The translations under genes were made by a program, and so were the position numbers. A DNA stretch of 64,000 bases from the human T2T-CHM13v2.0 reference genome, Homo sapiens. Below the pieces are notes generated by a model, which was given only the letters and a program-made list of their open reading frames with translations, was not told the DNA's origin and searched no databases. Below are positions 13,824 to 41,763 of the stretch, piece after piece. How positions within the stretch are numbered: position 1 is the stretch's first letter; each line of letters starts with the position of its first letter. The stretch lies in NCBI GenBank assembly GCA_009914755.4, contig CP086569.2, forward strand, positions 11,104,001 through 11,168,000. The letters are read 5' to 3'.

Positions 13824-13915
13824 ATTTCATTTCACCATTCCATTAGCCTCCATTCCATTACATTCCACTCCACTCCTCTCCATTCCTCTCCACTCCACTC
13901 AATTCCATTCCATTC

Positions 13916-19684: not shown

Positions 19685-22600
19685 ATTACATGTCAACTTT
19701 CCATTGCATTGCATTCTATTCCTTTGCTTTGCATTGCATTGCATTGTTTTCCATTACCTTGCATTCTATTCCATTCCGTTTCATTCCAGGGCATTCCTTT
19801 GCATTCCACTCCTTTCCATTCCATTCCACTCCACTCCATTTCACTCAACTTCACTCCACTCCATTCCATTCCATTCCATTACACTCACTCCACTCCATAC
19901 CATCCCACCCTTTCCACTCCATTCCACTCAATTCCAGTTCACTTCACTCCAGTCCAATCCACTCGATTCCACTTCAATCCATTCCGTTCCATTCCACTCC
20001 ATTCCATTCCACTCCACTTCATTCCATTCCACTCCACCCCATTCCATTCCAGTCCACTGCACTCCATCGACTCCATTTCATTCCATTCCATTCCACTCCA
20101 CTGCACACCACTCCATTCCATTACACACCATTCCTTTCCACTCCACCCCACTCCAATCCATTCTTGTCCACTCCACTCCAATGGGGGCATTGTTACATAT
20201 TTCTGCACTGATCACCCAGGTAATGCAACTGTTGTCTACACTCTGCCTACAGGGGCATTGTGACATATCACTACACTGATCCCACAGGTGATGAGACTCT
20301 TCTCCACGCTCTGCCTACAGGGGTCTTTGTGACATATCACTGCACTGATCACTCAGGTGATGGGACTCTTCTCTATACTCTGCCTAGAGGGGGATTTGTA
20401 ACATAGTTTTGCTCTGACCACCCAGGAGATGGAAGTCTTGTCTAGGCTCTATCTATGGGGGCATTGTGTCAAATATCCGCACTGATCATCGAGGGGATTT
20501 AACGTTGTCAAGGCTCTGTCTACAGGGATTTTTGTGGCATATCACTGCATTAATCACCAAGATGATGTAACTCTTCTCTAGGCTCTGTTTACATGGGCAT
20601 TTTCACCTATCACTGCACTGATCACCCAGGTGATGTAACCCTTGTCTAGGCTCTGCCTACCAGGGCTTTGTGACACATCTCTACACTGATCACCCGGGTG
20701 ATGTAAGTCTTTGTTGGATCTGCCTATGGGAGCATGCGACATATCTCTGCAGTGATCACCCAGGTGACAGGACCCTTTTCTAGGCTCTCTGTATGGGGGA
20801 TTTGTGACATATCTCCGCACTGATCACCAAGGTGATGTAACGTTTGACTAGGCTCTGCCTACTGGGGCATAGTGACATATCACTGCACTAATCACCGAGC
20901 TGATGTACCTCTTACCCAGGCTCTGCCAATACGGGGTCTTTTGACATATCTCTGCACTGATTGTCTAGGTGATGTTACTCTTGATTACGTTCTGCCTGCA
21001 GGGGCATTGTGAAATATATATTTACTGATCAAACAGGATATGTAACTCTTCTCTAATCTCTGTCTACAGGTGGCATTGTGGCATAACACTGCACTGATCA
21101 CCCAGGTGATGGGACTCTTCTCCAGGTTATGCCTACTGGGGACACTGTCACATATTTCTGCAGTGATCACCCAGGTGACGGACTTTTGTCTTGGATCTGG
21201 CTATGGGTGCAATGTGACATATCTCTGCATTGATCATCCAGGTCATGTAACTCTGGTCTAAGCACTGCCTAAAGGGACATTGTGACAGATCTCTGCACTG
21301 ATCACTCAGGTGATCTAACTATTGTCTAGGTTCTGCTTAAAGGAGCCTTGTCACATACCTCTGCACTGATTACCGAGGTGATGTAACTCTTGTCAAGGAT
21401 CTCCTTTCAGGGGGTATTGTTACACGTCTCTGAACTGATCACCTAAGTGATGTGACACTAGCGTAGGCTTTGCCTACAGGGGCATTTTGACATATCTCTG
21501 CACTGTTAACCGAGGTGATGTAACTATTTTCTAGGCTGTGACCACAGGGGGATCGAGACATATATCTGCACTAATCGCCAGGTGATCCAACTGTTGTCTG
21601 GGCTCTGCCTACTGGGGACATTGTGACATATCTCTGCACTGATCTCCCAAGTGATGTAACTTTTGTCTAGGCTCTGGCTACGCGGCATTTTGACATATCA
21701 CTGCACTGGACACCCAAGTGATATAACTCGTGTCTAGGCTCTGCCTACAGGGGGCCTGTGACATACCTCTGCACTGATCACCCAAGTGATGTAACTCTTG
21801 TCTGGGATCTGCCTGCAGGTTGCTTTGTGACATATCCCGTCAATGATCACCCAGGTGATGTACCACTTGTCAAGGCTCTGCCTACAGGGGCATTGTGAAG
21901 TATCTCTGCACTGATCACCTAGGTCATATAACCCTTGTCTAGGATCTCTCTGCAGTGGCATTGTGACATATCTCTGCAGTGATCACCCAGGTAATGTAAC
22001 TCTTGTCTAGGATCTGCCTATAGGGTGCTTTGTGACATTTCCCTGCAATGATCACCCAGGTGATATGCCATTTGTCTAGGCTCTGCCTACAGGGACATTA
22101 CGATGTATCTCTGAACTGATCACCTAGATCACGTATTTTTTTCTAGGTTCTGCCTACAGTGGCACTGTGGCATATCTCTGCAGTGATCACCCAGGTGATG
22201 TAACTCTTGTCTAGAATCTGACTACATGGTGCTTTGTGACATATCCCTGCAATGTTCACCAAGGTGTTGTACCACTTGTCAAAGCTCTGCCTGCTGGAGC
22301 ACTGCGACGTATCTCTACACTAATCACCTAGGTCATGTAATTCTTTTCTAGGATCTTCCAACAGTGGCATTGTGACATATCTCTGCACTGATCACCCAGG
22401 TGATGTAACACTTGTCTAGGATCTGTCTAAAAAGACTTTGTGACATAACTTTGCGCTGATCCCCCAGGTGAAGGGACTTTTGTCTATGCTCTGCTACGGT
22501 GGCATTGTGACATATCTCTACACTGATCACCCAGGTGTTGTAACTCTTGTGTTGGATCTGCCTACTGGGCATTGCGACATATTGCTGCACTGATCACCAA

Positions 22601-25600
22601 GGTGATGTGACTCTTGTCTTGTCTAGGCTCGGTGTATGGGGGATTTGTGACTTATCTCTGCACTGATTACCCAGGTGATGTAACGCTTGACTAGGCTCTG
22701 CCTACTGGGACACAGAGACAGATCATTGCATTGATCATCAAGCTGATTTGTCTGTTGTCCAGGATCTGTCTACAGGGGGCCTTGTGACGTATCTCTGCAC
22801 TGATCATCTAGGTGCTGTATCTCTTGCTTACGTTCTTTTTGCAGGGGCTTTGTGAAATATCTCTGTATTGATCAACCAGGTGATGTAACTCTTGTCTAGG
22901 CTCTGCCTACAGGGGGCATTGTGGAATAACTCTGCACTGATCACCCAGGTGATGTAACTCATCTGAGCTCTGCCTACAGGGGCCTTGTGACATATCACTG
23001 CACTAATCACCCCGGGGAGAGAATTCCTCTCTAGGCTCTACTTACAGGGGGCTTTGTGACCTGTCTCTGCAATGATCACCCAGTGATGTAACACTTGTCT
23101 AGGATCTGCGTTAAGGGACTTTGAGACATAACTCTGCACTGATCATCCAGGTGTTGGGGCTTTTATCTAGGCTCTGCCTACAGGGGCATTGTGACGTATT
23201 TCTGCACTGAACACCCAGGTGACGGACTCTTGTCTTGCATATGCCTATTTGGGATTTCTGGCATATCTCTGCACTGATCACCCAGGTAATGAAACTGTGC
23301 TATAAGCTCTGCCTACAGGGGAATTTTGAGAGATCTCTCCACTGTTCACCCAAGTGACGTAACTATTTTCTAGGCTTTGCCTACAGGGGGTTTGTGACAT
23401 ATCTTTGCACTGATCACCCAGTGATGTAACTCCTCTAAGCTCTTCCTTCAGGGGCCTTGTGACATTTCTCTGCCATGCTTACCCTGGGGAGAGAATTCTT
23501 GTCTACGCTCTGCCTACAGGGGTCTCTGTGACATATCACTGCACTGATCTTGAAGGTGATGTAACAGTTTTATAAGCTCTGCCTACAGAGTGTATAGTGA
23601 AATATATCTGCACTGATCACCTAGGTGATGTAACTCTTGTCTACCCTCTGCCTGCAGGGGGCATTGTGAAATATCTCTGCACTGATCAACTAGGTGACGT
23701 AACCCTTCTCTAGTCTCTGCCTACAGGGGCGTTTTGACATATCTCTGAACTGGTGACAAAGGTGATGTAACTCTTGCCTAGGCTTTGCCTGCAGGAGACA
23801 TTGTGACATATCTCTGCACTGATCACACAGGTGATGTAACTCTTGTCTAGTCTTTGCCTACAGAGGGCGTTGTGGCATATCTCTGTACTGATCTCTCAGG
23901 CGAGGTAACTCTTGTCTAGTCTCTGCCTACAGAGGGCATTGTGACATCACTCTGCAATGATCACCCAGGTGATGTAACTCTTGTCTAGGCTCTGCCTACC
24001 GGGGCATTTTAACATATCACTGCACTGATCACTGAGATGATGTAACTCTTGTATATGCTTCGCTGACAGGGGGCATTGAGACATATCTCTCTGTTGATCA
24101 CCGAGGTGATGCTAGTCTTGTCTAGGATCTGCCTGTAGAGGGCATTGTGAAATATCTCTGACCTGATCATCCAGGTGATGTAATTCTGGTCTAGGCTCTG
24201 CCTACTGGAGACACTGTGACTTATCTCTGCACTGATCACACAGGTGATGTAACTCTTGTCTAGTCTTTGCCTACAGAGGGCGTTGTGGCATATCTCTGCA
24301 CTGATCTCTCAGGTGAGGTAACTCTTGTCTAGTCTCTGCCTGCAGAGTGAGTTGTGACATCACTCTGCAATGATCACCCAGGTGACGTAACTCTTGCCTA
24401 GGCTCTGCCTACATGGATATTGTGACATGTCTGTTCACTGATCACCCAGGTGATGTAAATTTTGTCTAGTCTCTGCCCACATGAGGATTTTGATATATCC
24501 CTGCACTGATCACCGAGATGATGTAACTCTTTTCTGGGCTTTTCTGACAGGAGGCATTGAGACATATCTCTGCACTGATCACTGAGGTGATGCAACTCTT
24601 GTGTGGGCTCAGCCTACAGGGGGCATTGTGACATACCTCGGCCCTGATCACCCAGGTGATGTAACTCTTGTCTAGGCTCAGCCTAAAGGTGGTATTGTGA
24701 CATATCTCTGCACTGATAACCCAGGTGATGCAATTCTTCTCTAGGATCTGCCTACAGGGGCATTGTGACATATCTCTGCACTGATCACAAAGGTGATGTA
24801 ACTCTTCTTTAGGCTCTGCCTGCAAGGTGCTTTGTGAAATCAATCTGTATTGATAATCCAGGTGATGTAACATTTGTCTAGGCTCTGCCTAAGGGGGCAC
24901 TGTGACACATCTCTGCACTGATCACTGAAGTGATGTGACCCCTGTCTAAGTTCCCCCTATGGGTGCATTGTGAGATATCTCATCACTGATTCCCCAAATT
25001 ATGTAACCCTTTTCTAGGGTTTGCCTAAAGGGGGATTTGCCACATATGTCTGTACTGATCACCCAGGTGGTGTAACCCTTTTCTGGGGTCTGCCTACAGG
25101 GAAGTTGTGACATATCACTGCACTGATCACCCAGGTGATGTAACTTTTCTCTGGGCTGTACTTTCATGGGTCTTTGTGACATATCTCTGCACTGACCAAC
25201 TAGGTGATGTAACTCTTTTCTAGGCTTTTCCCGGAGGAGGCATTATTACATATCTCTACAATGATCACTGAGGTAGTGCAACTCTTGTCTACGCTATGCC
25301 TACAAGGGCATTGTGACATATCCCTACACTCATAACACAGGTGATGTCACTCTTGTCTAAGCTCTGCCAACCGGGGTCTTAGTGACATAACTCTGCACTG
25401 ATCACTCAGATGATGGTACTCTTCTCAATACTCTGACTAGAGGAGGATTTGTGACATATCCCTGCACTGATCACCCAGGTGATCGAAGTCTTGTCTAGGC
25501 TCTGTCTAAGGGGGCATTGTGTCAAATATCTGCACTGATCACCCAGGTGATGTAACTCTTTTCTAGGCTCTGTCTACAGGGATTTTTGTGATATATCACT

Positions 25601-28600
25601 GCACTGATGACCTCGATGACGTAACTCTTGTCTAGGCTCTGCCTACAAGGGCATTTTGACTTATCACTGCGCTGATCACCCAGGTGATGTAACAGTTGTC
25701 TAGGCTCTGCCTATAGGGGGCATTGTGACATATCTCTACACTGATCATCCAGGTGATTTAACTTTTGTCTAGGCTTTGACTGCAGTAGTTTTTGACATAT
25801 CTCTGCACTGATCACTGACGAGATGGAACACTTGTCTAGGCTCTGCCTAAATGGGCATTGTGACACATCTCTGAACTGATCAACCAAGTGATGTAACACT
25901 TGTCTAGGCTCTGCCTACAGGGCTTTGTGACATATCTCTGTACTGATCACCCAGGTAATGGGACTTGTGTCTAGGTTCTGCCAACGGGGGCATTGTGACA
26001 TATCTGTAAACTGATCACCCAGGTGATGTAACCCTTGTGTTGGATTTGCCTATGGTGGCATTGCGACATATTTCTGCACTGATCACCAAGGTGATGGGAC
26101 TATTTTCTAGGCTCTGCCTGTGGGGGCTTTGTGACTTATCCCTGCACTGATCACCCAGGTGATGTAACACTTGACTAGGCTCTGCCTACTGGGGCATAGT
26201 GACATATCACTGCATTGATCACTCAGATGTTGTAACTATTGTCTAGGCTCTGCTTAAAGGGGTCTTGTCACATATCTCTGCACTGATCACCCAACTGATG
26301 AAACACTTGTCTAGGCTCTGCCTACACGGGCATTGTGACACATCTCTGAACTGATCAACCAATTGATGCAACTCTTGTCTAGGCTCTGCCTACAGGGACT
26401 CTGTAACATATCTCTGCACTGATAACCCAGGTTATGGGACTTTTGTCTAGGCTCTGCCTATGGGGGAATTGTGACGTATCTCTACACTGATCACCCAAGT
26501 GATGTAACTCTTGTGTTGGATCTGTCTATGGGGGCATTGCGACATATTTCTGCCCTGATCACCCAGGTGGTGAGACCCTTTTCTAGTCTTTGTGTAGGGG
26601 GGCTTTGTGACATATCTCTGCACTGATCACACAGGTTATGTAACACTTGACTAGGTTCTGCCTACTGGGGCATTGTGAAATATCACTGCATTGTTCACTC
26701 AGATGATGTAACTATTTTCTAGACTGTCTAGGTGATGTAACAATTTTATAAGCTGAGCATATAGGGAATTTTGACAAACCTCTGCACTGATCACCTGGGT
26801 GATATACCTGTTGTATACCCTCTACCTACAGGGGGTATTGTGAAATATCTCCGCAATGATCACCTAGGTGATGTAACTGTTGTCTACCCTATGCCTACAG
26901 GGGGCATTGTGAAATATCTCTGCACTGACCACCAGGTGAGGCATCTCTTGTCTAGCATCTGCCTACATGGGATATTGTGAAATATCTCTGCACTGATCAA
27001 CTAGGTGATGTAACTCTTGCCTAGGCTCTGCCTACAGGGGCTTTTTGACATATCTCTGAACTGATGGCAAAGGTGATGAAACTCTTGCCTAGGCTTTGCC
27101 TTCAGGGGACATTGTGACATATCTCTGCACTGAGCACTCACGTGATGCAACTCTTCTCTATGCTCTGCCTACAGGGGGCATTGTGACATATCTCTGCACT
27201 GATCACCCAGGTGATGTAACTCTTTTCTAATCTCTGCCTACAGAAGGCTTTGTGACATCACTCTACACGGATCACCAGGGTTATGTAACTCTTGTCTACC
27301 GTCTGCCTACAGGGGGCATTGTGAAATATCTCGCACTGATCACCCAGGTGATGCAACTCTTGTCTAGGATCTGCCTGCAGGGGTTATTGTGAAATGTCTC
27401 CGCACTGGTCAACTAGGTGATGTAACTATTGTTTAGGCTCTGCCTACATGGGCGGTTTGACATATTTCTGAACTATGACAAAGGTGATGTAACTCTTGCC
27501 TAAGCTTAGCCTACAGGGGACATTGTGACATATCTCTGCACTGATCACCTAGGTGATGTATCTCTTTTCTAGTCTCTGCCTACAGAGGGGGTTGTGACAT
27601 CACTCTGTATGGATCACCCGGGTTATGTAACTCTTGTCTAGGCTCTGCCTATGGGGGCATTGTGACGTATCTCTGCACTGATCACCCAGGAGATGTGACT
27701 CTTGTTTAAGCTCTGCCTACAGGGGCTTTGGGAAATATCTCTGCACTGATCACTGAGCTGACATAACTCTTGTCTAGTCTTTGACTACAGTGGGATTTAT
27801 GACATATATCTGCATTGATCACCCAGGTGATGTAACTCTTGTCTAGGCTCTGCCTACTGGGATATTTTAACATATCAGTGCACAGATCACCGAGATGATG
27901 TAACTCTTGTATAGGCTTCACGGATAGGGGGCATTGAAACATAACTCTGCACTGATGACCGAGTTGATGCAACTCTTGTCTGGGATCTGCCTACAGGGGG
28001 CATTGTGACAAATTTCTGACTTGATCACCCAGGTGATTTTACTCTTTTCTAGGCTCTGCCTACTGGAGACATTGTGACTTATCTCTGCACTGATCACCCA
28101 GGTGATGTAACTCTTGGCTAGATCTGGCCACAGGGACATTGTGACATATATCTGCACTGATCACACAGGTGATGTAACTGTTGTCTAGTCTTTGCCTACA
28201 GAGGGGGTTGTGACATATCTCTGCACTGATCTCTCATGTGAGGTAACTCTTGTCTATTCTCTGCCTACAGAGGATGTTGTGACATCAGTCTGCCGTGATT
28301 GCCCTGATGATGTAACTCTTGTCTGGGCTCTGCCTACATGGACATTGTGACATGTCTCTGCACTGATCATTCAGGTGATGTAAATTGTGTCTAGGCTTTG
28401 CCCACAGGGGCATTTTGACATATATCCACAGTGATCACCGAAATGATGGAACTGTTGTGTAGCCTTTGCCAACAGGAGGCATTGAGACATATCTCTGAGC
28501 TGATCACTGAGGTGATGCAACTCTTGTCTGGGCTCTGCTGACAGGAGGCATTGAGACATATCTCTGCACTGATCACCGAGGTGATGCAACTCTTGTCTGG

Positions 28601-29408
28601 GCTCTGCCTACAGGGGGCGATGTGACATATATCTGTCCTGATCACCCAGGTGATGTAACTCTTCTCTAGGCTCTGCTTAAAGTGGGTATAGTGACATATT
28701 TCTGCACTGATCACCTAGGTGATGTAACTCTTTTCTAGACTCTGCCTACAGGGGCATTTTGACATATCTCTGAAGTGATCACTGAGGTGATGTAACTCTT
28801 GTCTAGGCCTTGCCTACAGGGGGCATTATAACATATCTGTGCACTGATCACCCAATTGATGTAACTCTTGTCTAGGCTCTGCTTTCAGGGGGTATTGTGA
28901 GATATCTCTGCACTGATCACCCAGGTGATGAAACTCTTGTCTAGGCTCTGCCAACAGGGGCATTTTAACATATCACTGCACTGATAACTGAGATGATATA
29001 ATTCTTTCATAGGCTTCGCCGACAGTGGGCATTGAGACATATCTCAGCGTTGATCGCCAAATGATGCAACTGTTTTCTGGGATCTGCCTAAAGGGGACAT
29101 TTTGATATATCTCTGATCTGATCTCCCAGGAGATGTAACTCGTGTCTAGTCTCTGGCCACAGGGACATAGTGGCATATATCTGCACTGATCACACAGGTG
29201 ATGTAATTTGTCTAGTCTTTGCCTACAGGGAGCGTTGTGAAATATCTCTGCACTGATCTCTCAGGTGAGGTAACTCTTGTCTAATCTCTGCCTACAGAGT
29301 GCTTTGTGACATCAGTCTGCAATGATCACCCAGGTGATGTAACTCTTGTCTAGGCTCTGCCAACATGGAGATTTTGACATGTCTCCGCACTGATCACATT
29401 GTGACATA

Positions 29409-32400
29409 GGTCGCAATGCCCCATAGGCAGATCCAACACAAGAGTTACATCACCTGGGTGATCAGTGTAGAGATATGTCACAATGCCCCCGTAGGCAGAG
29501 CCTAGAGAAAAGTCCCATCACCTTGCTGATCATTGCAGGAATATGTCACAAAGCAACCTGTAGGCAGATCCCAGACAAAAGTTATATCACCTGGGTGATC
29601 ACTGCAGAGATATGTCACAATACCACCGCAGGCAGAGCCTAGGCAAGAGTTACATGCCCTAGGTGACCCGTTCAGAGATACATCACAATGCCCCTGTAGT
29701 CAGAGCCTTGACAAGTGGCACATCACCTGGGTGATCATTGCAGGGATATGTCACAAAGCACCCTGTAGGCAGATCCAAGGCAAGAGTTACATCACCTGGG
29801 TGGTCAGTGCAGAGATATGTCACAAGCCCCCTTTATACAAAGCCTAGACAAGAGTTATATCAGCTGGGTGATTAGTGCAGTGATATGTCACAATGCCGTG
29901 TTGCCAGAGTCTAGACAAAAGTTACATCACCTGAGAGATCAGTGCAGAGATATATCACAATATCCCCAGTGGGTAGAGCCCAGACAAGAGATAGATCACC
30001 TTGGGATCAGTGCAGAGAGCTGTCTCAATCACCCTGTGGGCACAGCCTAGACAAGAGTTACATCACCTCGGTTAACAGTCCAGAGATATGTCAAAATGCC
30101 GCTATACTCAGAGCCTACACAAGTGTTTCATCACTGAGGTGATCAATGGAGAGATATGTCACAATACTCCCTATAAGCTGAGCCTAGACAAGAGTTACAT
30201 CACCTGGGTGATCAGTGCAGAGATATGTGACCAGGCCCCTTTAACCAGAGCTTAGACAATAGTTCCATCACCTGAGTGATCAGTGAAGAGATCTGTCACA
30301 AAGCCCCTTTAGGCAGAGCTTAGACCAGAGTTACATCACCTGTGTGATCAGTGCAGTGAAATGTCACAATGCCCCCATAGGCAGATCCAAGACAAGAGTC
30401 CATCACCTGGGTGATCAGTGCAGAAATATATGACAGTTCCCCCAGTAGGCAGAGCCTAGAGATGACTCCCATCACCTGGGTGATCAGTGCAGAGTTATGC
30501 CAAAATGCCCTCTGTAGGCAGAGCCTAGACAAGAGTTACATCACCTGGTGTATCAGTAAGAGACATTTCACAATGCCCCTGCAGGCAGAGCGTAAGCAAG
30601 AGTTACATTACCTAGATGATCAGTGCAGAGATATGTCACTAGGCCCCCTATAGGCAGAGCCTGGAGAAGAGTTACATCATCTCGGTGATCAATGCAGCAA
30701 TATGTCACTATGCTCCAGTAGGCAGAGGCTAGTCAAGTGTTACATCACCTGGGTGATCAGTGCAGATATATGTCACAAAGCCCCCATGCAAATAGCCTAG
30801 ACAAGAGTCCTATCACCTTGGTGATCAGTGCAGAAATATGTCGCAATGCACCATAGGCAGATCCAACACAAGAGTTACATCACCAGGCTGATCAGTGTAG
30901 AGATATGTCACAATGCCCCCGTAGGCAGAGCCTAGACAAAAGTCCCATGACCTGGGTGATCAGTGCAGAGATATATCACAAAGCCCCTGTAGGCAGAGCC
31001 TAGACAAGAGTTACATAATTTGGTTGATCAGTTCAGAGATGTGTCACAATGCCCACGTAGGCAGAGCCCAGACTAGAGTTCCAACAGCTGGGTGATCAGC
31101 GGAAAGATATGTAACAAGACCTCTTTAAGCAGAACCTAGACAATAGTTACATCATCTGAGTGATCAGTGCAGTGATATGTCACAATGCCCCCGTCGGCAG
31201 AGCCTAGACAAAAGTCCCATCACTTGGGTGGTCATTTCAGGGACATGTCACAAAGCCCCTGTAGGCAGAGCCTAGACAAGAGTTACATCATTTGGTAGAT
31301 CAGTTCAGAGATGTGTCACAATGCCCATGTAGGCAGAACCTAGACAAGTGTTACATCACCTGTGTGATCAGTGCAGAGATATGTCACAAAACCCCTGCAG
31401 GCAAAGCCTAGACAAGAGTCGCATAACCTGGATGATCAGTGCAGAGTTATGTCACAAAGTCCCTTTAGGCAGATCCTAGGCAAGAGTTACATCAGCAGGG
31501 TGATCACTGTAGAGATATGTCTCTCTGCCACTTTAGGTGGAGCCTAAATAAGAGTTACATGACCTAGGTGATCAGTGCAGAGATACATCGCAATACCCCT
31601 GTAGGCAGAGCCTTAACAAATGGTATATCACCTGGGTGATTATTGCAGGGATATGTAAAAAAGCACCCTGTAGGCAGATCCCAGACAAGAGTTGCATCAC
31701 CTCGGTGATCAGTCCAAAGATATGTCTCAATGTCCCCTGTCAGCGAAGCCTATACAAGAGTTACATCATCTCGGTGATCAGTGCAGTGATATGTTAACAT
31801 GCCCATGTAGGCAGAGCATAGAAAAGAGTTACATCACCTGGGTGATCCGTGCCGAGATATCTCACAATACCCCCTGTAAGCAGAGCCTAGACAAGAGTTA
31901 CACCAACGGGGTGATCAGTGCAGGTAGATGTCATAAATCCCACTGTAGGCAAAGCCTAGACAAGTGTTACATCACCTCAGTGATCAGTAAAGATATATGT
32001 CCCATGCCCCTGTAGGCAGAGCTTAGTCAAGAGTCACATCTCCTTGGTGATCATTGCAGAGATACGTCACAATGTCCCCATAGGCAGAGCCTAGACAAGA
32101 GTTACATAACCTGTGTGATCCACGCAGAGTGATGTCACAATGCCCTCTGTAAGCAGAGACTAGAAAAGAGTTACATCACCTGGGTGATCAGTGCACAGAT
32201 ATGTCACAATTTCCCCAGTAGGCAGAGCCTACACAAGTGTTACATCACTTTGGTGATCAGTGTAGAGATATGTCACAATACCCCCTGTAGGCAGAGCCTA
32301 GACAAGAGTTACATCACCTGGGTGATCAATGCAGAGATATGTGACAAGGCCCCATTAAGCAGAGCCTACACAATAGTTACATCTTCTGAGTGATCAGTGC

Positions 32401-34043
32401 AGAGATCTGTCACAGTGCCCCTTTAGGCAGAGCTTAGACCATAGTTACATCATTTGGGTGATAAGTGCAGAGACAGATCAGAATGCCCCATAAGCAGATC
32501 CAAGAAAAGAGTCCGTCACCTGGGTGATCAGTGCAGAAATATGTGACCATGCCACCAGTAGGCAGAGCCTAGAGAAGAGTCCCATCACCTGGCTGATGAG
32601 TGCAGAGTTATGCCCCAATGCCCCCTGTAGGCAGAGCCTAGACAATGGTTACATCACCTGGTTGATCAGTAAAGAGATATTTCACAATGCCCCTGCAGGC
32701 AGAGAGTAAGCAAGAGTTGCATCACTTAGATGATCAGTGCAGAGATGTGTCACAAGGCCCCCTATAGGCAGAGCTTGGACAAGAGTTACATCACCTCGGT
32801 GATCAATGCAGTCGTATGTCACTATGCCCCAGTAGGCAGAGCTTATTCAAGCGTTACATCACCTGGGTGATCAGTGCAGAGATATGTCACAAAGCCCCCA
32901 TAAACAGAGCCTAGACAAGCGTCCCATTAGCTGGGTGATCAGTGCAGAAATATGTCACAATGTCCCCATAGGCAAAGCCTAGACAAAAGTCCCATCACCT
33001 GGATGATCAGTACAGAGATATGTCAGAAAACCCCTGTAGACAGAGCCTAGAGAAGAATTACATCACTTGGTTGATCAGTTCAGAGATGTGTCACATTGCC
33101 CACGTAGGCAGCGCCTACACACGTTTTCCATCACCTCGGTGATCAGTGCAGAGATATGTCACAAAAACCCTGCAGGCAAAGCCTAGAAAAGGGTTACATC
33201 ACCTGCTTGATCAGTGCAGATATATGTCAGAAAGCCCCCATACACGGAGCCTAGATAAGAGTCCCTTCTCCTGGATGTTTAGTGCAAAAATATGTCGCAA
33301 TGCCCCATAGGCAGATACAACACAAGAGATACATCACCTGGGTGATCAGGGTAGAGATATGTCACAATGCCCCCGTAGGCAGAGCCTAGACAAAAGTCCC
33401 TTCAAATGGGTGATCAGTGCAGAGATATGTCACAAAGCCCCTGTAGGCAGATCCTAGACAAGGGTTACATCACTTTGTTGATCAGTTCAGAGAGGTGTCA
33501 CAAGTGCCCATGTAGGCAGAACACAGATAAATGTTCCATCAGCGGCGTGATCAGTGAAGAGATATGTGACAAGGCCCCTTAAGCAGAACCTAGACAATAG
33601 TTACATCATCTGAGTGATCAATGCAATGATATGTCACTATGCCCCAGTAGGCAGAGCCTAGTCAAGCTTTACATCACCTGGGTTATCAGTGCAGAGTTAT
33701 GACACAATGCCCACTGTAGGGAGAGCCCAGGCAATATTTACATCACCTGATTGATCAGTAAAGAGATGTTTCACAATGCCCCTGCAGGCGGAGCGTAAGC
33801 AAGAGTTACATCACCTTGATGATCAGTGCAGAGATATGTCAAAAGGTCCCCTGTAGGCAAAGCCTGGACAAGAGTTACATCACCTCGGTGATCAATGCAG
33901 TGATATGTCACTATGCCCCAGTAGGCAGAGCCTAGTCAAGCATTACATCACCTGGGTGATCAGTGCAGTGATATGTCAAAAAGTCCCCAGACACACAGCC
34001 TAGACAAGAGTCCCATCACCCTTGTGATCAGTGATATGTCAGC
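29409..34043 (-). repeat. Inverted segment (about 4.6 kb, about 68 monomers) inside the BSAT array. Monomers read as the reverse complement (gagttacatcacctgggtgatcagtgcagagatatgtcacaatgccc).
   Basis: Seen directly. Orientation flips at about 29,398-29,417: the forward text ...gcactgatcac is followed by attgtgac-atag-gtcgcaat, an inverted repeat with 8-bp arms and a 4-bp spacer. It flips back at about 34,026-34,052: tgatcagtg-atatgtcag-cactgatca, a perfect 9-bp inverted repeat with a 9-bp spacer. Confidence 0.88.
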
Positions 34044-34420
34044 ACTGATCACCCAGGTGATGTACATTTTGTCTAGGCTATGCCCACAGGGGCATTTTGA
34101 CATATCTCTGCACTGATCACCGAGATGATGTAACTCTTGTCTCGGCTTTGCCAATAGGAGGCATTGAGATATATCTCTGCATTGATCTCCGAAGTGATGC
34201 AACTCTTGCCTGGACTCTGCCTACAGGGGCCATTGTGACATATCTCTGCCGTGATCACCCAGGTGATGTAACTCTTGTCTAGGCTCTGCCTAAAGGGGGT
34301 ATTGTGACATATCTCTGCACTGATCACCTAGGTGCTGTAACTCTTTTCTAGGCTTTTCCTACAGGGGCATTTTGACATATCAGTGAAGTGATCACCATGG
34401 TGACGTAAGTCTCATCTAGG

Positions 34421-34485
34421 ATCAATACAGAGTAATGTCACAAAGCACCTTGCATGCAGAGCCTAGAGAAGAGTTACATTACCTG
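34421..34485 (-). repeat. Single-monomer (about 65 bp) micro-inversion in BSAT, about 380 bp distal to the large inversion.
   Basis: The forward monomer ends ...gtctcatctagg. Then atcaatacagagtaatgtcacaaagcaccttgcatgcagagcctagagaagagttacattacctg reads as the reverse-complement monomer. Forward orientation resumes at cataactctgcactgatcac. The junction is flanked by gagtta...taactc, a 6-bp inverted repeat. Confidence 0.75.
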
Positions 34486-37400
34486 CATAACTCTGCACTG
34501 ATCACCCAGGTGATGGGACTCTTCTCTAGGCTATGCCAGCTGTGGGCATTGTCACATATTTCTGCACTGATCACTGAGGTGACGGACTCTTGTCTTGGAT
34601 CTGACTATGGGGGCATTATGACATATCTGTGCACTGATCACCCAGGTGATGTAACTCTGGTCTAAGCTCTGCCTAAAGGGGCATTGTGACAGATCTCTGC
34701 ACAGATCACTCAGGTGATTTAACTATTTTCCAGGTTCTGCTTAAAGGGGCCTTGTCACATATCTCTGCACTGATCACCCTGGTGATGTAACTCTTGTCTA
34801 GACTCTGCTTACAGGGGGTATTGTGACATATCTCTGCACTGATTACCTACTTGATGTAACACTTGTGTAGGCTCTGCCTACAGGGGCTTTTTGACATCTC
34901 TCTGCACTGTTAACCGAGGTGATGTAACTCTTGTCTAGGCTGTGCCCACAGGGGGATTGAGACATATCTCTGCACTGATCCTGAGGTGATCCAACTCTTG
35001 TCCGGGCTCTGCCTATTGGAGACATAGTGACATACCTCTGCAGTGATCTCCCAGGTGATCTATCTTTTGTCAAGGTTCTGGCTACATGGCTTTGTGACAT
35101 ATCACTGCACTGATCTCCCAGGTGATATAACTCTTGTCTATGCTGTGCCTACCGGGGACTTGTGACATATCTCTGCACTGAACACCTAGGGGATGTAACT
35201 ATTGTCTAGGGTCTGCCTACAGTGTGCTTTGTGACATATCCCTGCAATGATCACCCAGGTGATGTAACACTTGTCAACGCTCTCCCTACAGGGGCATTGC
35301 GATGTATATCTGAACTGATCACCTAGGTCAAGTAACTCTTGTCGAGGCTCTGCCTGCAGTGACATTGTGACATATCTCTGCACTGATCACACAGGTGATG
35401 TAACACTTGACTACGATTTGCCTACAGGGTGCTTTGTGACATATCCCTGAAATGATCACCCACGTGGTGTACGACTTTTCAAGGCTCTGCCAGAGGGGCA
35501 TGTGATCTATCTCTGTGCTGATTACCTAGGTCATGTAATTCTTTTTTAGGCTCTGCCTACAGTGGCATTGTGACATTTCTCTGCACTGATCACCGAGGTG
35601 ATGGAACTCTTGTCTAGGATCTGCCTGAAGGGACTTTGTGTCATAACTCTTCACTGATCATCCAGGTGATAGGGCTTTTGTCTAGGTTCTGCCTACAGGG
35701 GTATTGTGACTTATTTCTGCACTGATCACCAAGGTGACAGACTCTTCCTGTATCTGCCTATGGGGGCATTGTGACATATCTCCTCACTGATCACCCAAGT
35801 GATGTAACTGTTTCATAAGCTCTGCCTACAAGGGAATTGTGAGCTCTCTCCACTGATCCCGAAAGTGATGTAATTATTGTCTAGTCTTTGCCTACAGGGG
35901 ACTTTGTGACATATCTTTGCACTGATCACTCAGGTGATGTAACACATCTAAGCTCTGCCTACTGGGACATTGTGACATATCTCTGCACTGATCACCCCGT
36001 TGATGCAACTCTTCTCTATGCTCTGCCTACAGGGGCATTGTGACATATCACTGAACTGATAACCCTGGTGATGTACCTCTTTTCTAGTCTCTGCTTACAG
36101 AGGGTGTTGTGACATCACTCTGCACGGATCACCCGGGTCATATAACTCTTGTCTAGGCTCTGCATATGGGGGCTTTGTGACGTATCTCTGCAATGATCAC
36201 CCAGGAGTTGTGACTATTGTCTAAGCTCTGCCTACAGGGAGACTGGGACATATCTCTGCAATGATCACTGAGGTGATGTATCACTTGTCTAGGCTTTGCC
36301 TACAGTGGGATTTATGACATATCTCTGCACTGCTCACCCAGTTGATGTAACTCTTGTCTAGACTCTGCTTACAGTGGGTATTGTGAGATATCTCTGCACT
36401 GACCACCCAGGTGATGTAACTCTTGTCTGGGCTCTGCCTACAGGGTCATTTTAACATAGCACTGCACTGATCACCTAGATAATGTAACTCTTGTATAGGC
36501 TTTGCCGAAAGAGGCATTGAGACATATCTCTGCACTTATCACCGAGGTGATACAACTCTTGTCTGGGATCTGCCTGCAGGAGACATTTTTACATATCTCT
36601 GAAATGATCATCGAGGTGATGTTACTCTTGTCTAGGCTCTGCCTACTGGAGACATTGTGACTTATCTCTGCACTGATCACCCAGGTGATGTAACTCTTGT
36701 CTAGAGTCTGGCCACAGGGACAGAGTGACATATATCTGCACTGATCACACAGGTGATGTACTTCTTGTAAAGTCTTTGCCTACAGGGGGTGTTGTGACAT
36801 ATCTCTGCACTGATCTCTGAGGGGAGGTAACTCTTGTCTAGTCTCTGTCTACAGAGGGCGTTGTGACATCACTCTGCAATGATCACCTTGTTGATGTAAC
36901 TCTTGTCTAGGCTCTGCCTACATGGACATTATGACATATTTCTGCACTGATCACCGCGGTGATGTAGATTTTGTCTAGGCTCTGCCCACAGGGGCATTTT
37001 GACATAACTATGCACTGATCACCGAGGTGATGCAACTCTTCTCAAGGCTCTACCTACACGGGGCATTGTGACATATCTCTGCACTGATCTTGCAGGTGAT
37101 GTAACTCTTCTCTAGGCTCTGCCTGCAAGGTGCTTTGTGACATCACTGTATTGATCATTAAGGTGATGTAACTTTTGTCTAGGCTCTGCCTATGGGGGAA
37201 TTGTGACACATCTCTGCACTGATCACTGAGGTGATGTGACCCCTCTCTAAGCTCTCCCTATGGGTGCATTTTGAGATATCTCTGCAATGATTCCCCAGAT
37301 GATGTAACTTTTCTCTAGGCTTTGCCTAAAGCTGGATTTGCCGCATGTCTCTGTACTGATCACCCAGCTGATGTAACACTTTTCTAGCCTCTACCTACAG

Positions 37401-40400
37401 GGGAATTTTAACATATCACTGCACTGATCACCGAGATGTTGTAACTCTTGTATAGGCTTTGCCAACAGTGGGCTTTGAGACATATTTCTGTACTGATCAC
37501 CGAGGTGATGCAACTCCTGTCTGGGACCTGCCTACAGGGGGCATTTTGACAGATCTCTGCCCTGATCACCCAGGTGATGTAACTCTTCTGTAGGGTCTGC
37601 CTCCAGGGGTTATTGTGACATATCTCTGCACTGATCACGCAGGTGAGGTAACTCTTCTCTAGGCTCTGCCTACAAGGTGCTTTGTGACTTCACTCCTTAT
37701 TAAACATCCAGGTGAAGTAACTTTTGTCTAGGCTCTGCCTAAGGGGGCTTTGTGACCCATCTCTGCACTGATCATTCAGGTGATGTGACCCCTGTCTAAG
37801 CTCTCCCTATGGGTGCATTTTGAGATATCTCTGTACTGATTCCCCAGATGATGTAACTCTTTTCAAGGCTTTGCCTAAGGGGGATTTGCCACATATCTCT
37901 GTACTGATCACCTAGGTGATATAATACTTTCCTAGGTTCTTCCTACAGCGGAATTGTGACATATCACTGCACTGATCACCCAGATGATGTAACTCTTCTG
38001 TAGGCTGTACTTTCAGGGGGCTTTGTGACATACCTCTTCACTGATCAACTAGGTGATGTAACTCTTTTCTAGGCTTTGCCCAGAGGGGGCATTGTAACAT
38101 ATCTCTGCACTGATCACCCAGGTGATGTAACTCTTGTCCAGGCTCTGCCAATAGGTGCCCTTGTGACATATCTCTGCACTGATCATCTAGGTGATGTAAC
38201 ACTTGCTTACGCTCTGCCTGCTGGGGCATTGTGAAATATCCCTTTACTGATCAACCAGATGATGTACCTCTTGTCTAGGCTGTGCTTACATGGGGCATTG
38301 TGGCATAACTGCACTGATCACTCAGGTGATGGGACTTTTCTTTAGGCTCTGACTACTAGAGGCATTGTCACATATTTCTGCACTGATCACCGAAGTGATG
38401 GACTCTTGTCTTGTATCTGCCTATGGGGGGCATTGTGACATATCTCTGCGCTGATCACCCAGGCGATGTAACTCTGGTCTAAGCTCTGCCTAAAGAGGCA
38501 TTGTGACAGATCTCTGCACTGGTCACTCAGGTGATGTAATTATTTTCTAGGCTCTGCTTAAGGGGTCTTGTCACATATCTCTGCACTGATCACCCAGGTG
38601 ATGTAATTCTTGTCTAGGCTTGGCTTACAGGGGATATTGTGACATATCTCTCCACTGATCACCTAAGTAATGTAATACTTGTGTACGCTCTGCCTACAGT
38701 GGCATTTTGACATATCTCTGCACTGTTAACTGAAGCGATGTAACTCTTGTATAGGCTTCACTGACAAGTGGCATTGAGACTTATGTCTGCATTGATCACC
38801 TAGGTGATGCAGCTCTTGTATGGGATCTGCCTACAGGGGGCATTGTGACTTATCTCTGATGTGATCACCCAAGTGATGTAACTCTTGTCTTGGCTCTGCC
38901 TACTGGAGACATTGTGACTTATCTATGTACTGATCACCCAGGTGATTTAACTCTTGTCTAGGCTCTGGCCACAGGGACAAAGTGACATATATCTGCCCTG
39001 ATCACACAACTGAAGTAACTCTTTTCTAGTCTTCGCCTACATAGGGTGTTGTGACATATCTCTGCACTGATCTCTCAGGTGAGGTAACTCTTGTCTAGTC
39101 TCTACCTACAGAGGGCTTGTGACATCACTGTGCAATGCTCACCCAGGTAATGTAACTCTTGTCTAGCCTCTGCCGACATGGAGATTTTGAGATGTCTCTG
39201 CACTGATCACCCAGGTGATGTAAATTTTGTCTAGCCTCTGCCCACAGGGGCATTTTGACATATCTCTGCACTGATCACAGAGATGATGTATCTCTTGTCT
39301 GGGCTTTGCCAACAGGAGGCATTGAGACATAGCTCTGCACTGATCACCAAGGTGATGCAACTCTTGTCTGGGCTATGCCTACTTAGGGCATTGTGACATA
39401 TCTCTGCCCTGATCACCCAGGTGATGTAACTCTTGTCTAGGCTCTGCCAAAAGGGGGTATTGTGAAATATGCCTGCACTGATCACCTAGGTGATGTAACT
39501 CAATTCTAGGCTCTGCCTGCAGGGGCGTTTTGACATATCTCTGAAGTGATCACCGAGGTGATGTAACTCTTGTCTAGGGTTTGCCTACAGGGGGCATTGT
39601 AATATATCTCTGGACTTATCACCCAGGTGATGCAACTCTTCTCTAGGCTCTGCCTACAGGGGGCATTGTGACATATCTCTGCACTGATCACGCAGGTGAT
39701 GTAACTCTTCTCCAGTCTGTACTTTCACGGGGCTTTGTGACATACCTCTGCACTGATAACCTAGGCGTTGTAACTCTTTTCTAGGCTTTGTCCAGAGGTG
39801 GCATTTTTACATATCTCTCTGCACGGAGCATTAAGATAATGCAACTCTTGTCTATGCTCTGCCTACAGGAGCATTGGGAAATATCATTACACTGATCACA
39901 CAGGTGATGGTACTCTTGTCTAAGCTCTGCCTAAAGGGGTCTTTGTGACATATCTCTGCACTGTTCACTCAGGTGATGGGACTCTTCTCTATATTCTGCC
40001 TAGAGGGGGATTTGTGACATATCTCTACACTTATCACGCAGGTGATGGAAGACTTGTCTAGGCTCTGTCTGTTGGGGTATTGTGTCAGATATCTGCACTG
40101 ATCACTCAGGTGATGTAACTCTTGTCTGAGCTCTGCCTACAGAGATTTTTGTGACATATCACCGCACTGATCACCTAGATGATGGAACTCTTGACTAGGC
40201 TCTTCCTACAGGGACATTTGGATGTATCACTGCACTGATCACCCAGGTGATGTAACTCTTTTGTAGCCTCTGCCTATAGGGGCATTGTGACATATCTCTG
40301 CACTGATCAATCAGGTGATGTAACTTTTGTCTAGGCTTTGACTGCAGGGTTTTTTTTGACATATCTCCTCACCGATCACCCAGGTGATGGAATATTTTAC

Positions 40401-41763
40401 TAGGCTCTGCCTACATGGGCATTGTGACACATCTCTGAACTGATCAACCTAGTGATGTTAACTCTTCTTTAGGCTCTGCCTATTGGGTCTTCGTGACATA
40501 TCTCTGCACTGATCACCCAAGAGGTGGGACCTTTGTCTAGGCTGTGCCTATGGGGGCATTGTGACATATCTTTACACTGATCACCCAGGTTATGTAACAC
40601 TTGTGTGGGATCAACCTCTGGGAGCATTGTGGCATATTTCTGTACTGATCACCCAGGTGATGGGACGCTTTCCTAGGCTCTGTATATGGGGGCTTTGTGA
40701 CATATCTCTGCTCTGATCACTCAGGTGATGTAACGCTTGACTAGGCTCTGCCTATTGGGGCAAAGTGACATGTCACTGCATTAATCACTCAGATGATGTA
40801 ACTATTGTCTAGCCTCTGTTTAAGGAGACTTGTCACATATCTCTGCACTGATTACACAGCTGATGGAACACTTGTCTAGGCTCTGCCTACATGGGCATTG
40901 TGACACATCCCTGAGCTGATCAACCAAGTGATGTAACAATTGCCTAGGCTCTGCCTACAGTGGCATTGTGACATATCTCTGCACTAATCACCCAGGTGAT
41001 GTAACTCTTGTATAGGATCACTCCACTCCACGCCATTCTGCTCCACTCCACTCCAGTCCAGTCGACTCCACTGAATTCCATTCCACTCCCCGCCATTCCA
41101 CTCAACTCGATTCCACTCCAGTCCAGTATATTCCACTCCACTCCACTCCATTCCACTTCACTCCATTCCATTTCACAGCACCTCATTCCATTCCACTCCA
41201 CTCCATTCCATTCCATTCCATTCCATTCCATTCCATTCCATTCCATTCCTTTCCATTATACTCCGTTCCATTCCATTCCACTCAATTCCACTCAACTCCT
41301 TTCCACTCCACTCCATTCCATTCTATTCCATTCCATTCCATTCCATACCACTATAATCCATTCCACTTCATTATTTTCCATTCAACTGCATTCCATTCCA
41401 CTCCACTCCACTTCAATCCACTACATTCCATTCCACTCCACCCCCCTCCAATGCACTCCACTCCACTCCACTAAATTCCATTCCACTCCATTCCATTCCA
41501 CTACATTCCCTTCCAGTCCACTCCATTCCACACCACTCCATTCCACTCAACTCCATTCCATTCCACACCATTCCAATCCATTCCATTCCATTCCATTCCA
41601 TCCCATTCTATTCCATTCCATTCCATTACACTCCATTCCATTCAATTCCATTCTATTGCACTCCATTCCACTATCCGTCATTCCACTCCACTCCATTCCA
41701 ATCCACTCCACTCCATTCCATTCTACTCCATTCCATTTCATTCTACGCCATTCCATTCAATTG

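What the first reader, a model, noticed from the sequence alone, without database searches (positions are those of the whole stretch)
29380..34060. A 4.6-kb inversion inside the BSAT array with palindromic breakpoints
About 68 monomers read as the reverse complement. The proximal junction is attgtgac-atag-gtcgcaat at 29,398-29,417 (8-bp arms with one mismatch, 4-bp spacer). The distal junction is tgatcagtg-atatgtcag-cactgatca at 34,026-34,052 (perfect 9-bp arms, 9-bp spacer). Junctions that lie on short inverted repeats are the classic footprint of template switching during replication or of hairpin-mediated repair, not of non-allelic homologous recombination. The inverted block carries the same multi-monomer HOR markers as the forward flanks, so it is an in-situ inversion or inverted duplication of local array material. 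Orientation switches inside satellite arrays are rare. They are relevant to array stability and can also arise from assembly errors.
Basis: seen in the sequence. Interest (0 to 1): 0.7.

Follow-up and report, generated by a model that had tools for sequence, protein, structure and literature searches.

The report
Inverted block inserted in beta satellite
A 4.6-kb stretch of 68 beta-satellite repeats does lie backwards inside its array, but it was inserted backwards into a single repeat unit (duplicating 11 bp of the target) rather than flipped in place, and such strand switches are already known to be common in this satellite.

Summary
A 68-bp beta-satellite (βSat) array (20184-41016), embedded in pentamer satellite, reads in reverse for 68 monomers (29410-34041). 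Both junction palindromes exist.

The interpretation needs revision:
- **Insertion, not in-place inversion.** Four older paralogous copies in the same array (near 24.4, 28.3, 36.9 and 39.2 kb) run without a gap from the left-flank sequence into the right-flank sequence, through one intact monomer. At this locus that monomer is split. GCACTGATCAC sits on both sides of a 4644-bp reversed insert.
- **Compound junctions.** A 12-nt filler that hairpins with the insert end sits at the left junction. An 8-nt filler after a 5-bp skip sits at the right junction. Such discontinuities occur almost nowhere else in 305 monomers. Together with the duplication, this points to template switching or polymerase-assisted end joining.
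- **Distal palindrome is geometric.** About one in five simulated junctions gives one.
- **No HOR and no recent donor.** The best paralogs are 82-91% identical, so the event is old or the donor lies elsewhere.
- **Second reversed piece missed.** A 65-bp segment lies at 34421-34485.

Published T2T and pangenome work reports hundreds of βSat strand switches. This is an ordinary member of a known class, with one useful mechanistic detail.

The parts
35..20163 (+). Left flanking pentamer (TTCCA)n satellite of HSat2/3 type, in the same orientation as the right flank
   Evidence: TRF period 5; GC skew about -0.8
20184..29397 (+). Forward βSat array, left part (about 134 monomers). It ends at monomer position 32 of a split monomer.
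   Evidence: TRF period 68; monomer HMM hits
29387..29397 (+). Left copy of the 11-bp target duplication GCACTGATCAC (monomer positions 22-32)
   Evidence: Identical 11-mers on both sides of the insert. The paralogs carry a single copy at this site.
29398..29409 (+). 12-nt filler ATTGTGACATAG (forward monomer positions 6-17). It follows a 41-position phase jump and forms the left arm and loop of the proximal palindrome.
   Evidence: HMM phases; palindrome scan. Only one other phase jump occurs in the whole array.
29410..34033 (-). Core of the reversed insert: 68 βSat monomers running from reverse position 13 to reverse position 24
   Evidence: AT-skew reversal
34034..34041 (-). 8-nt filler ATATGTCA (reverse positions 17-10), following a 5-position skip. 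It belongs to the reverse strand, so the true distal switch is at 34041|34042.
   Evidence: TATGTCA occurs 0 times in forward orientation in the forward blocks. The only internal deletion of >=4 columns among 305 monomers is in this monomer.
34042..34052 (+). Right copy of the 11-bp target duplication GCACTGATCAC
34042..34420 (+). Forward βSat, 5.6 monomers. It is the continuation of the monomer split at 29397.
   Evidence: Its homologs 39200-39578 (89.4%), 24436-24805 (87.3%) and 28360-28738 (83.1%) abut the homologs of 28990-29397.
29397..29418 (.). Proximal palindrome CATTGTGAC-ATAG-GTCGCAATG (9-bp arms, 1 mismatch at a CpG/TpG site)
34024..34052 (.). Distal palindrome GTGATCAGTG-ATATGTCAG-CACTGATCAC (10-bp perfect arms, monomer positions 24-33 in both orientations)
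   Evidence: A geometric origin is shown by simulation.
34421..34485 (-). Second reversed segment of 65 bp (reverse positions 32-1 then 68-35). It is an inverted filler at a junction between two different ancestral segments.
   Evidence: 92.3% identical to the reverse complement of 37093-37155 and 90.6% to that of 24791-24854 (a semi-global alignment places the latter at 24790-24854). Its two flanks have non-collinear homologs.
34486..41016 (+). Forward βSat array, right part (about 96 monomers)
38829..39578 (+). Paralogous 'empty site' copy. An uninterrupted monomer lies around 39200-39210.
   Evidence: 85.9% over 779 columns; 75/81 identical and 0 gaps around the healed junction
24034..24805 (+). 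Paralogous 'empty site' copy
   Evidence: 85.6%; 70/81; 0 gaps
27989..28738 (+). Paralogous 'empty site' copy
   Evidence: 82.8%; 72/81; 0 gaps
36617..37045 (+). Paralogous 'empty site' copy (fourth, shorter)
   Evidence: 81.0%; 71/81; 0 gaps
41042..63988 (+). Right flanking pentamer satellite

Best explanation
The reversed block is a non-reciprocal, inverted insertion. About 68 βSat monomers (4644 bp, 29398-34041) were copied or captured in reverse orientation into one monomer of a forward βSat array, and 11 bp of the target (GCACTGATCAC) were duplicated.

The most likely mechanism is repair of a break or collapsed fork by microhomology-mediated template switching (FoSTeS/MMBIR type). The inferred sequence of events is:
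1. The extending 3' end left the target monomer after position 32.
2. It made a short, poorly processive excursion, which produced the 12-nt filler that hairpins with the insert end.
3. It copied about 4.6 kb of βSat from a template in the opposite orientation.
4. It made another short slip (a 5-bp skip followed by the 8-nt filler).
5. It returned to the original template 11 bp upstream of where it had left, which created the duplication.

Shown directly: the insertion architecture, the duplication, the fillers, and the absence of a recent local donor. Inferred: the polymerase-based route and the order of steps.

The block has no function. It is one of the many strand switches that accumulate in βSat arrays.
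For: Empty site:
- The best homologs of the left flank (24034-24445, 38829-39210, 27989-28369) directly abut the best homologs of the right flank (24436-24805, 39200-39578, 28360-28738), overlapping by 10-11 bp.
- The homology offset jumps by 4654-4655 bp, which equals the 4644-bp insert plus 11 bp.
- The multiple alignment shows one uninterrupted monomer in four paralogs. They share rare variants: CATGGA..ATGTCT, GTAAATTTTG, CCGAGATGATG.
- After excising 29398-34052 in silico, the healed locus aligns over about 780 columns at 81-86% identity. There are 0 gap columns and 70-75/81 identities within +-40 nt of the junction. The healed monomer scores 52.7 bits, against an array median of 59.1.

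Compound junctions:
- TATGTCA occurs 0 times in forward orientation in the forward blocks.
- The only internal deletion of >=4 columns among 305 monomers is in the J2 monomer.
- Only one other phase jump exists in 20.8 kb.
- The extra discontinuities therefore belong to the event itself.

Local family origin: the block has no diagnostic variants (minimum p 0.0026, inside the null distribution). It shows mirrored multi-monomer paralogy to both flanks.

Not a recent duplication: best-paralog identity has median 88.1% and maximum 90.6%, the same as forward windows (Mann-Whitney p=0.063).
Against: - No collinear donor is present in the window. Different parts of the block match different places at 82-91%. 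A copying (duplicative) origin therefore cannot be shown directly.
- The same architecture could come from end-joining capture of a free fragment.
- Microhomologies at the individual switch points are at most 1-3 nt and are ambiguous in a repeat.
- The 11-bp duplication is the most conserved part of the monomer. Its identity in the two copies therefore says nothing about age.
- The empty-site inference rests on paralogs within one haplotype, not on orthologous or allelic empty sites.
Confidence: 0.5

Rival explanations
1. Capture of an extrachromosomal βSat fragment. A linear fragment or a linearised circle (spcDNA/eccDNA) excised from a βSat array was ligated in reverse orientation into a staggered break in one monomer, by NHEJ or polymerase-theta-mediated end joining. 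Fill-in of the stagger gave the 11-bp duplication, and snap-back synthesis gave the fillers.
For: - It has the same insertion architecture as the best explanation.
- No donor copy is retained in the window.
- The insert without the 12-nt filler spans 68 whole monomers plus 4 nt. Its two ends overlap in phase (positions 10-13), as expected for a unit-length circle cut once (phases). Such an overlap would arise by chance about 13% of the time.
- The two termini of the block map 10 bp apart in one paralog, at 22578|22588, though only at 83-85% identity.
- Precedent from the literature: βSat is found in small polydisperse circular DNA, and an 18-monomer βSat block inserted into TMPRSS3 (PMC8997349).
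Against: - An 11-nt staggered break is unusual for ordinary double-strand breaks.
- The phase coincidence is weak.
- The terminal adjacency rests on second- and third-best hits.
- Nothing in the sequence distinguishes ligation from copying.
Confidence: 0.27
2. In-place two-break inversion. Sixty-eight monomers between two breaks at similar monomer phase were flipped and rejoined, perhaps through the 7-bp inverted microhomology TGACATA/TATGTCA.
For: Re-inverting the block gives acceptable monomers along a ridge of breakpoint pairs from 29402/34041 to 29410/34033. A 7-bp inverted match bounds the block.
Against: - Four paralogs show the two flanks contiguous within one monomer, with an 11-bp overlap. 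An in-place inversion does not predict this.
- The model needs a forward monomer carrying TATGTCA, which is seen 0 times in forward orientation in the forward blocks.
- It also needs two unrelated indels of kinds that occur once or never elsewhere, lying 8 and 12 bp from the junctions.
- Old homology does not become more continuous across the junctions after restoration.
Confidence: 0.06
3. Assembly or read artefact: a mis-join or a fold-back chimeric read incorporated into the assembly.
For: Satellite arrays are hard to assemble, and no reads are available here to check.
Against: - The array is diverged enough to be nearly unique. Only 52 of 20773 61-mer positions recur, and about 80% of 25-mers within 300 bp of each junction are unique. 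There is therefore no long exact overlap on which to mis-join.
- Fold-back chimeras give perfect long palindromes. Here the mirror identity falls to family level beyond 9-10 bp: 0.55-0.64 at J1 and about 0.74-0.80 at J2.
- An 11-bp duplication with short fillers is a biological junction signature.
- Strand switches in βSat are reported in large numbers in the T2T-CHM13 assembly and across many other assemblies.
Confidence: 0.04
4. Fold-back (palindromic) inverted duplication: a broken end folded on itself at a short inverted repeat and copied the adjacent array backwards.
For: Short palindromes lie at both junctions. The proximal one is nearly a zero-spacer 20-bp palindrome centred on ATAT.
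Against: The sequences either side of each junction are not mirror copies. The five-monomer mirror identity about J2 is 0.744, against a background of 0.713 with sd 0.034, and J1 gives 0.55-0.64. The best relatives of the block are scattered rather than adjacent.
Confidence: 0.03

Closest known systems
Strand switches ('inversion breakpoints') in human βSat arrays, catalogued in T2T-CHM13 and pangenome centromere studies
   Same: This is an orientation change inside a 68-bp βSat array with no other sequence class at the junction. Altemose et al. [quoted passage not shown] A 2026 preprint (10.64898/2026.07.22.740206) reports hundreds across assemblies. It finds that their number correlates with array length (r=0.90) and that they are randomly placed.
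   Different: In the passages I read, those studies count switches at annotation scale and call them inversions or by-products of array expansion. They give no nucleotide-level junction anatomy there. Here the paralogous empty site, the 11-bp duplication and the fillers show that this switch pair is an inverted insertion.
Ectopic βSat insertion in TMPRSS3 (DFNB10), and βSat in small polydisperse circular DNA
   Same: A multi-monomer block of βSat was inserted as a unit into a new site (18 monomers in TMPRSS3). The proposed source is extrachromosomal βSat circles (PMC8997349).
   Different: Here the target is another βSat monomer in the same array family, the insert is 68 monomers and reversed, and an 11-bp target duplication is present. 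The source of the insert is unknown.
Replication-based complex rearrangements (FoSTeS/MMBIR) and polymerase-theta templated insertions
   Same: These events feature inverted copied segments, short templated fillers at the junctions, minimal microhomology, and small duplications where synthesis returns to the original template. This comparison rests on general knowledge of these pathways, not on a test made here.
   Different: Those events are usually defined by a demonstrable donor copy and a copy-number gain. No donor above 91% identity exists in this window.

Membership tests
Beta satellite (68-bp Sau3A family) | Tandem monomer of about 68 bp | tested here: met
   TRF period 68-69 over 20184-41016. 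The modal monomer spacing is 68 bp.
Beta satellite (68-bp Sau3A family) | Sau3A site (GATC) in most monomers | tested here: met
   GATC is present at HMM columns 27-30 in 239 of 305 monomers.
Beta satellite (68-bp Sau3A family) | Sequence match to the published βSat consensus | not testable with these tools
   No reference βSat sequence or human genome is available in the tools. The match to the consensus rests on my memory of the family only.
Higher-order-repeat (HOR) satellite array | Regular multi-monomer periodicity, with copies much more alike than adjacent monomers | tested here: not met
   Lag profiles are flat at 0.71-0.73 to lag 30 and show no dominant peak to lag 100. All long self-alignments are at 77-84% identity.
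Balanced in-place (two-break) inversion | The flanks were not adjacent before the event, and the inverted material originally lay between them | tested here: not met
   Four paralogs show the flanks contiguous within one monomer.
Balanced in-place (two-break) inversion | Reciprocal junctions without gain or loss | tested here: not met
   There is an 11-bp duplication, plus 12-nt and 8-nt fillers. The model needs a forward variant that occurs 0 times in forward orientation in the forward blocks.
Insertion with target-site duplication | An empty site exists in related sequence, and a short direct repeat of the target flanks the insert | tested here: met
   GCACTGATCAC lies at 29387-29397 and 34042-34052, and each paralog has a single copy. 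The healed locus aligns gap-free. The empty sites are paralogous, not allelic.
Inverted duplication (copy of a retained donor) | A collinear forward-strand donor is identifiable | tested here: inconclusive
   No collinear donor is present in the window. The best piecewise matches are 82-91% and scattered. The rest of the genome could not be searched.
NAHR between inverted repeats | Long inverted homologous segments at both ends of the inverted block | tested here: not met
   Only a 7-bp inverted match bounds the block. The array was unidirectional before the event, according to the empty sites.
Fold-back inverted duplication | Mirror-image identity of the sequences on the two sides of a junction | tested here: not met
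   Mirror identity is at family level beyond 9-10 bp.
FoSTeS/MMBIR-type template switching | Multiple closely spaced switch points with short templated fillers and little homology | tested here: met
   There are two discontinuities within 12 bp at J1 and within 8 bp at J2. Such discontinuities are otherwise nearly absent from 305 monomers. This pattern is compatible with the pathway but not exclusive to it.
L1-mediated retrotransposition (TPRT) | A poly(A) tail at one end of the insert, together with a target-site duplication | tested here: not met
   There is no A- or T-run at either end of the insert. Only the duplication is present.

The most novel reading that the evidence does not exclude
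βSat strand switches in general may not be inversions at all. They could be footprints of reinsertion of multi-monomer array fragments, by template-switch copying or by capture of extrachromosomal βSat circles, each leaving a short target duplication and filler nucleotides. If this holds across the hundreds of catalogued switches, it would identify insertion of array fragments as a major mode of βSat array growth. It would also explain why the number of switches scales with array length.
Probability: 0.2. Interest if true: 0.55.

Novelty: new member of a known kind. Interest (0 to 1): 0.3.

Why it matters
Strand switches in βSat and HSat3 arrays are counted in the hundreds per genome. In the passages I read they are described only at annotation scale, as 'inversion breakpoints' or by-products of array expansion. 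This locus happens to be old and diverged enough that paralogous copies serve as empty sites. One switch pair could therefore be resolved to the base. It turns out to be an inverted insertion with an 11-bp target duplication and short fillers, not an inversion.

That offers a concrete, testable signature for a genome-wide survey of how satellite arrays acquire reversed blocks:
- flanks that heal into one monomer;
- a short duplication of the target;
- compound junctions with filler nucleotides.

The case also carries a caution. Short palindromes at orientation junctions inside a tandem repeat arise largely from geometry and should not be read as a mechanistic footprint without a simulation control.

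As a single instance it is ordinary.

Tried and rejected
1. **Simple two-break inversion.** Re-inverting the block over a 20x20 grid of breakpoints gave a ridge of acceptable restorations. I rejected the model because it needs a forward TATGTCA variant (seen 0 times in forward orientation in the forward blocks) and two coincident rare indels. The empty sites also contradict it.
2. **Continuity test at 6-10-monomer scale.** Homology across the restored junctions was compared with homology across the current junctions. The result was inconclusive, because the signal is too diluted at that scale. The 340-400-bp scale then worked.
3. **Fold-back or mirror duplication at J1 and J2.** Negative.
4. 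**Nested or paired inversion models.** I tried combining the four switch points by monomer phase (J1/J4 outer with J2/J3 inner, and J3/J4 as a simple inversion). The phases are not reciprocal (phases).
5. **In-place flip of the 65-bp unit.** The left flank and the unit are collinear with 24621-24854, but the right flank is not. Its collinear positions rank 201 and 112 of 229, and its best relatives are 38371+ and 21151+. The unit is therefore a filler at a junction between two different segments.
6. **Foreign subfamily origin of the block.** There are no diagnostic columns.
7. **Expansion from a small inverted seed.** The block is only marginally more homogeneous than the flanks (0.726 against 0.713). 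Only 26 of 69 of its monomers have their best match inside the block.
8. **Donor search within the window.** No collinear donor was found, and the maximum identity is 90.6%.
9. **L1/TPRT.** Rejected, because there is no poly(A) tail.

The microbial, phage and protein tools do not apply to this sequence and were not used.

Full report
**What the window is.** TRF and base composition show a 20.8-kb array of a 68-bp repeat (20184-41016). It lies between two long tracts of diverged (TTCCA)n pentamer satellite that share one orientation, with GC skew about -0.8 on both sides. The 68-bp unit has the hallmarks of human beta satellite (βSat): the 68-bp period, and a Sau3A site (GATC) in 239 of 305 monomers. 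I could not compare it with a reference βSat sequence, so that part of the identification rests on recall.

**Checking the observation.** The orientation switch is real.
- TRF reports the reverse-complement consensus for 29406-34033, with 67.9 copies.
- AT skew is about -0.16 across the array but +0.15 to +0.17 between 30 and 34 kb.
- A monomer HMM built from the array minus-strand monomers between 29410 and 34041.

Both palindromes exist. The proximal one is CATTGTGAC-ATAG-GTCGCAATG at 29397-29418, with 9-bp arms and one mismatch. The distal one is GTGATCAGTG-ATATGTCAG-CACTGATCAC at 34024-34052, with 10-bp perfect arms. Inside the uninterrupted array such palindromes are rare. There are 27 centres with arms >=8 (<=1 mismatch) and only one perfect >=9 in 20.3 kb.

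**No HOR.** Mean monomer-to-monomer identity is 0.71. The identity-versus-lag profile is flat (0.71-0.73) in all three blocks and has no dominant peak out to lag 100. Long self-alignments are all at 77-84%.

What does exist is an irregular patchwork of old multi-monomer segmental copies. They reach 80-86% over eight monomers and 82-91% over 340-400 bp. They link the reversed block to both flanks on anti-diagonals, as expected for opposite orientation. The reversed block has no diagnostic base variants: its minimum p is 0.0026, inside the null distribution for random 68-monomer flank blocks. It is therefore ordinary material of the same array family.

**Are the palindromes a mechanistic footprint?** I simulated 6618 blunt two-break inversions in the forward parts of the array.
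- A junction palindrome with arms >=8 appears at about 20% of single junctions.
- It appears at both junctions in 8.9% of simulations.
- When the two breaks fall within +-10 positions of the same monomer phase, the both-junction figure is 27-35%. Otherwise it is 0.6%.

The distal palindrome is of this geometric kind. Its arms are the most conserved monomer segment (positions 24-33) facing itself in opposite orientation. The arms did not exist before the event.

The proximal palindrome is different. The left flank ends at monomer position 32, and the reversed block starts at position 13, so the two are out of phase. The palindrome exists only because a 12-nt filler (ATTGTGACATAG, forward positions 6-17) sits between them and pairs with the first 9 nt of the block. 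The one mismatch in the arms is a CpG/TpG difference.

**Junction anatomy.**
- J1 reads: forward to position 32 | forward 6-17 (29398-29409) | reverse from position 13.
- J2 reads: reverse to position 24 | reverse 17-10 (ATATGTCA, 34034-34041) | forward from position 22.

The 8 nt at J2 belong to the reverse strand, because TATGTCA occurs 0 times in forward orientation in the forward blocks.

The extra discontinuities are not background noise. Only one of 305 monomers has an internal deletion of >=4 columns, and it is the J2 monomer. Apart from the junctions, the whole array has a single phase jump, a 28-bp intra-monomer duplication at 26.7 kb. Both junctions are therefore compound, and the fillers belong to the event.

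**The decisive result: an empty site.** At 400-bp resolution the best homologs of the left flank (28990-29397) are 24034-24445, 36617-36954, 38829-39210 and 27989-28369, at 85-87% identity. The best homologs of the right flank (34042-34420) are 39200-39578, 24436-24805 and 28432-28807, followed by 28360-28738, at 83-89%.

In three copies the homolog of the left flank directly abuts the homolog of the right flank, overlapping by 10-11 bp. The homology offset jumps by 4654-4655 bp. A multiple alignment shows that in four paralogs one uninterrupted monomer runs from the left-flank sequence into the right-flank sequence. The copies share rare variants (CATGGA..ATGTCT, GTAAATTTTG, CCGAGATGATG). At the locus itself, the flanks overlap in exactly GCACTGATCAC.

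Excising 29398-34052 in silico heals an ordinary monomer (52.7 bits, against an array median of 59.1). The healed locus aligns to the four paralogs over about 780 columns at 81-86% identity. Within +-40 nt of the junction there are no gap columns and 70-75 of 81 positions are identical.

The flanks were therefore contiguous. The 4644-bp reversed block is an insertion with an 11-bp target duplication, not an in-place inversion.

**Models considered and discarded.**
- *Two-break inversion.* It gives acceptable restored monomers along a ridge of breakpoint pairs. However, it needs the never-observed forward TATGTCA variant and two coincident rare indels, and the empty sites contradict it.
- *Fold-back duplication.* It fails because the sequences either side of the junctions are not mirror copies.
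- *Nested or paired inversion schemes* for the four switch points. The monomer phases do not fit.
- *NAHR.* It has no substrate.
- *L1-mediated insertion.* There is no poly(A) tail.
- *Growth from a small inverted seed.* The block is only marginally more homogeneous than the flanks, and most of its monomers have their closest relative outside it.

**Age and donor.** Best-paralog identity of 340-bp windows has median 88.1% (maximum 90.6%) in the block, against 86.6% and 86.7% in the two forward parts (p=0.063). Different parts of the block match different, non-collinear places.

Two readings remain. The event may be about as old as the segmental copies that make up the array. Alternatively, the donor lies outside the window. 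A recent local inverted duplication is excluded.

**The 65-bp reversed unit.** It is 92.3% identical to the reverse complement of 37093-37155 and 90.6% to that of 24791-24854, against a background of 75%. Its left flank is collinear with 24621-24813, and the unit overlaps that homolog by 24 bp. Its right flank belongs to a different ancestral segment: its best matches are 38371+ at 92.1% and 21151+ at 89.7%, while its collinear positions rank 201 and 112 of 229.

It is thus an inverted filler at a junction between two unrelated segments. Whether it arose in the same complex event as the large insertion, 380 bp away, or independently cannot be decided. The chance of such proximity is roughly 8%, which is my own estimate.

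**Mechanism.** The insertion architecture, the duplication and the fillers are shown directly. The route is inferred.

- I favour microhomology-mediated template switching during repair of a break or collapsed fork (confidence 0.5). Closely spaced switch points, short fillers and a return 11 bp upstream of the departure point are what that pathway produces.
- The main rival is capture of a free βSat fragment or linearised circle by end joining (0.27). It is supported weakly by the insert being 68 whole monomers plus a 4-nt terminal overlap. It is also supported by precedent: βSat occurs in small circular DNA, and an 18-monomer βSat block inserted into TMPRSS3 (PMC8997349).
- In-place inversion (0.06), an assembly artefact (0.04) and fold-back duplication (0.03) are unlikely.

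Against an artefact:
- The array is nearly unique at k=61, and about 80% of 25-mers around each junction are unique.
- The mirror identity is not that of a chimeric fold-back read.
- An 11-bp duplication with fillers is a biological signature.

Reads are still needed to settle the artefact question.

**Comparison with what is known.** The claim that orientation switches in satellite arrays are rare does not hold for this family. [quoted passage not shown] A 2026 pangenome preprint reports hundreds of βSat strand switches across assemblies. It finds that their number correlates with array length (r=0.90) and that they are randomly placed, and it interprets them as by-products of array expansion.

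This locus is one more member of that class. What it adds is base-level resolution showing that this switch pair is an inverted insertion. It also adds a control showing that junction palindromes in tandem repeats are largely geometric.

**Verdict.** The finding is a new member of a known kind, and I score its interest at about 0.3.

Noticed in passing
It is 92.3% identical to the reverse complement of 37093-37155 and 90.6% to that of 24791-24854. It sits at a junction between two non-collinear ancestral segments, so it looks like an inverted templated filler.
   Followed up: yes
window 26726-26763: This is the only other phase discontinuity in the βSat array. Monomer positions about 33-60 are repeated in tandem, giving a 97-bp monomer spacing. 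It is a small intra-monomer duplication.
   Followed up: partly
window 35-20163 and 41042-63988 (e.g. 760-840, 13740-13830): An Alu-like fragment (core GCAGTGGCACAATCT, with flanking ...GTCACCCACACTGGAGTGCAGTGGCACAATCTTAGCT...) recurs 47 times with <=2 mismatches. It is always on the + strand, occurs only in the pentamer satellite, and is irregularly spaced (shuffle expectation 0.13). It appears to be part of this satellite subfamily's own repeat structure rather than a set of independent Alu insertions.
   Followed up: partly
window 20184-41016: The βSat array has no HOR, but it is a patchwork of old segmental copies at 82-92% identity, with recurrent irregular lags (about 31-33 and 56 monomers). 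No 340-bp window has a paralog above 91% anywhere in the array.
   Followed up: partly
window 21013-21220 and 38304-38440: The 190-bp segment to the right of the 65-bp filler matches in-phase positions shifted by one and two monomers almost equally well (0.885-0.92 at 21013, 21082, 21151, 38304 and 38371). This suggests a short run of locally homogenised adjacent monomers in those copies.
   Followed up: no
window 20163-20184 and 41016-41042: Both βSat/pentamer-satellite boundaries are abrupt, and the pentamer satellite has the same orientation on both sides. This suggests that the whole βSat array is itself an island inserted into, or expanded within, the pentamer satellite.
   Followed up: no
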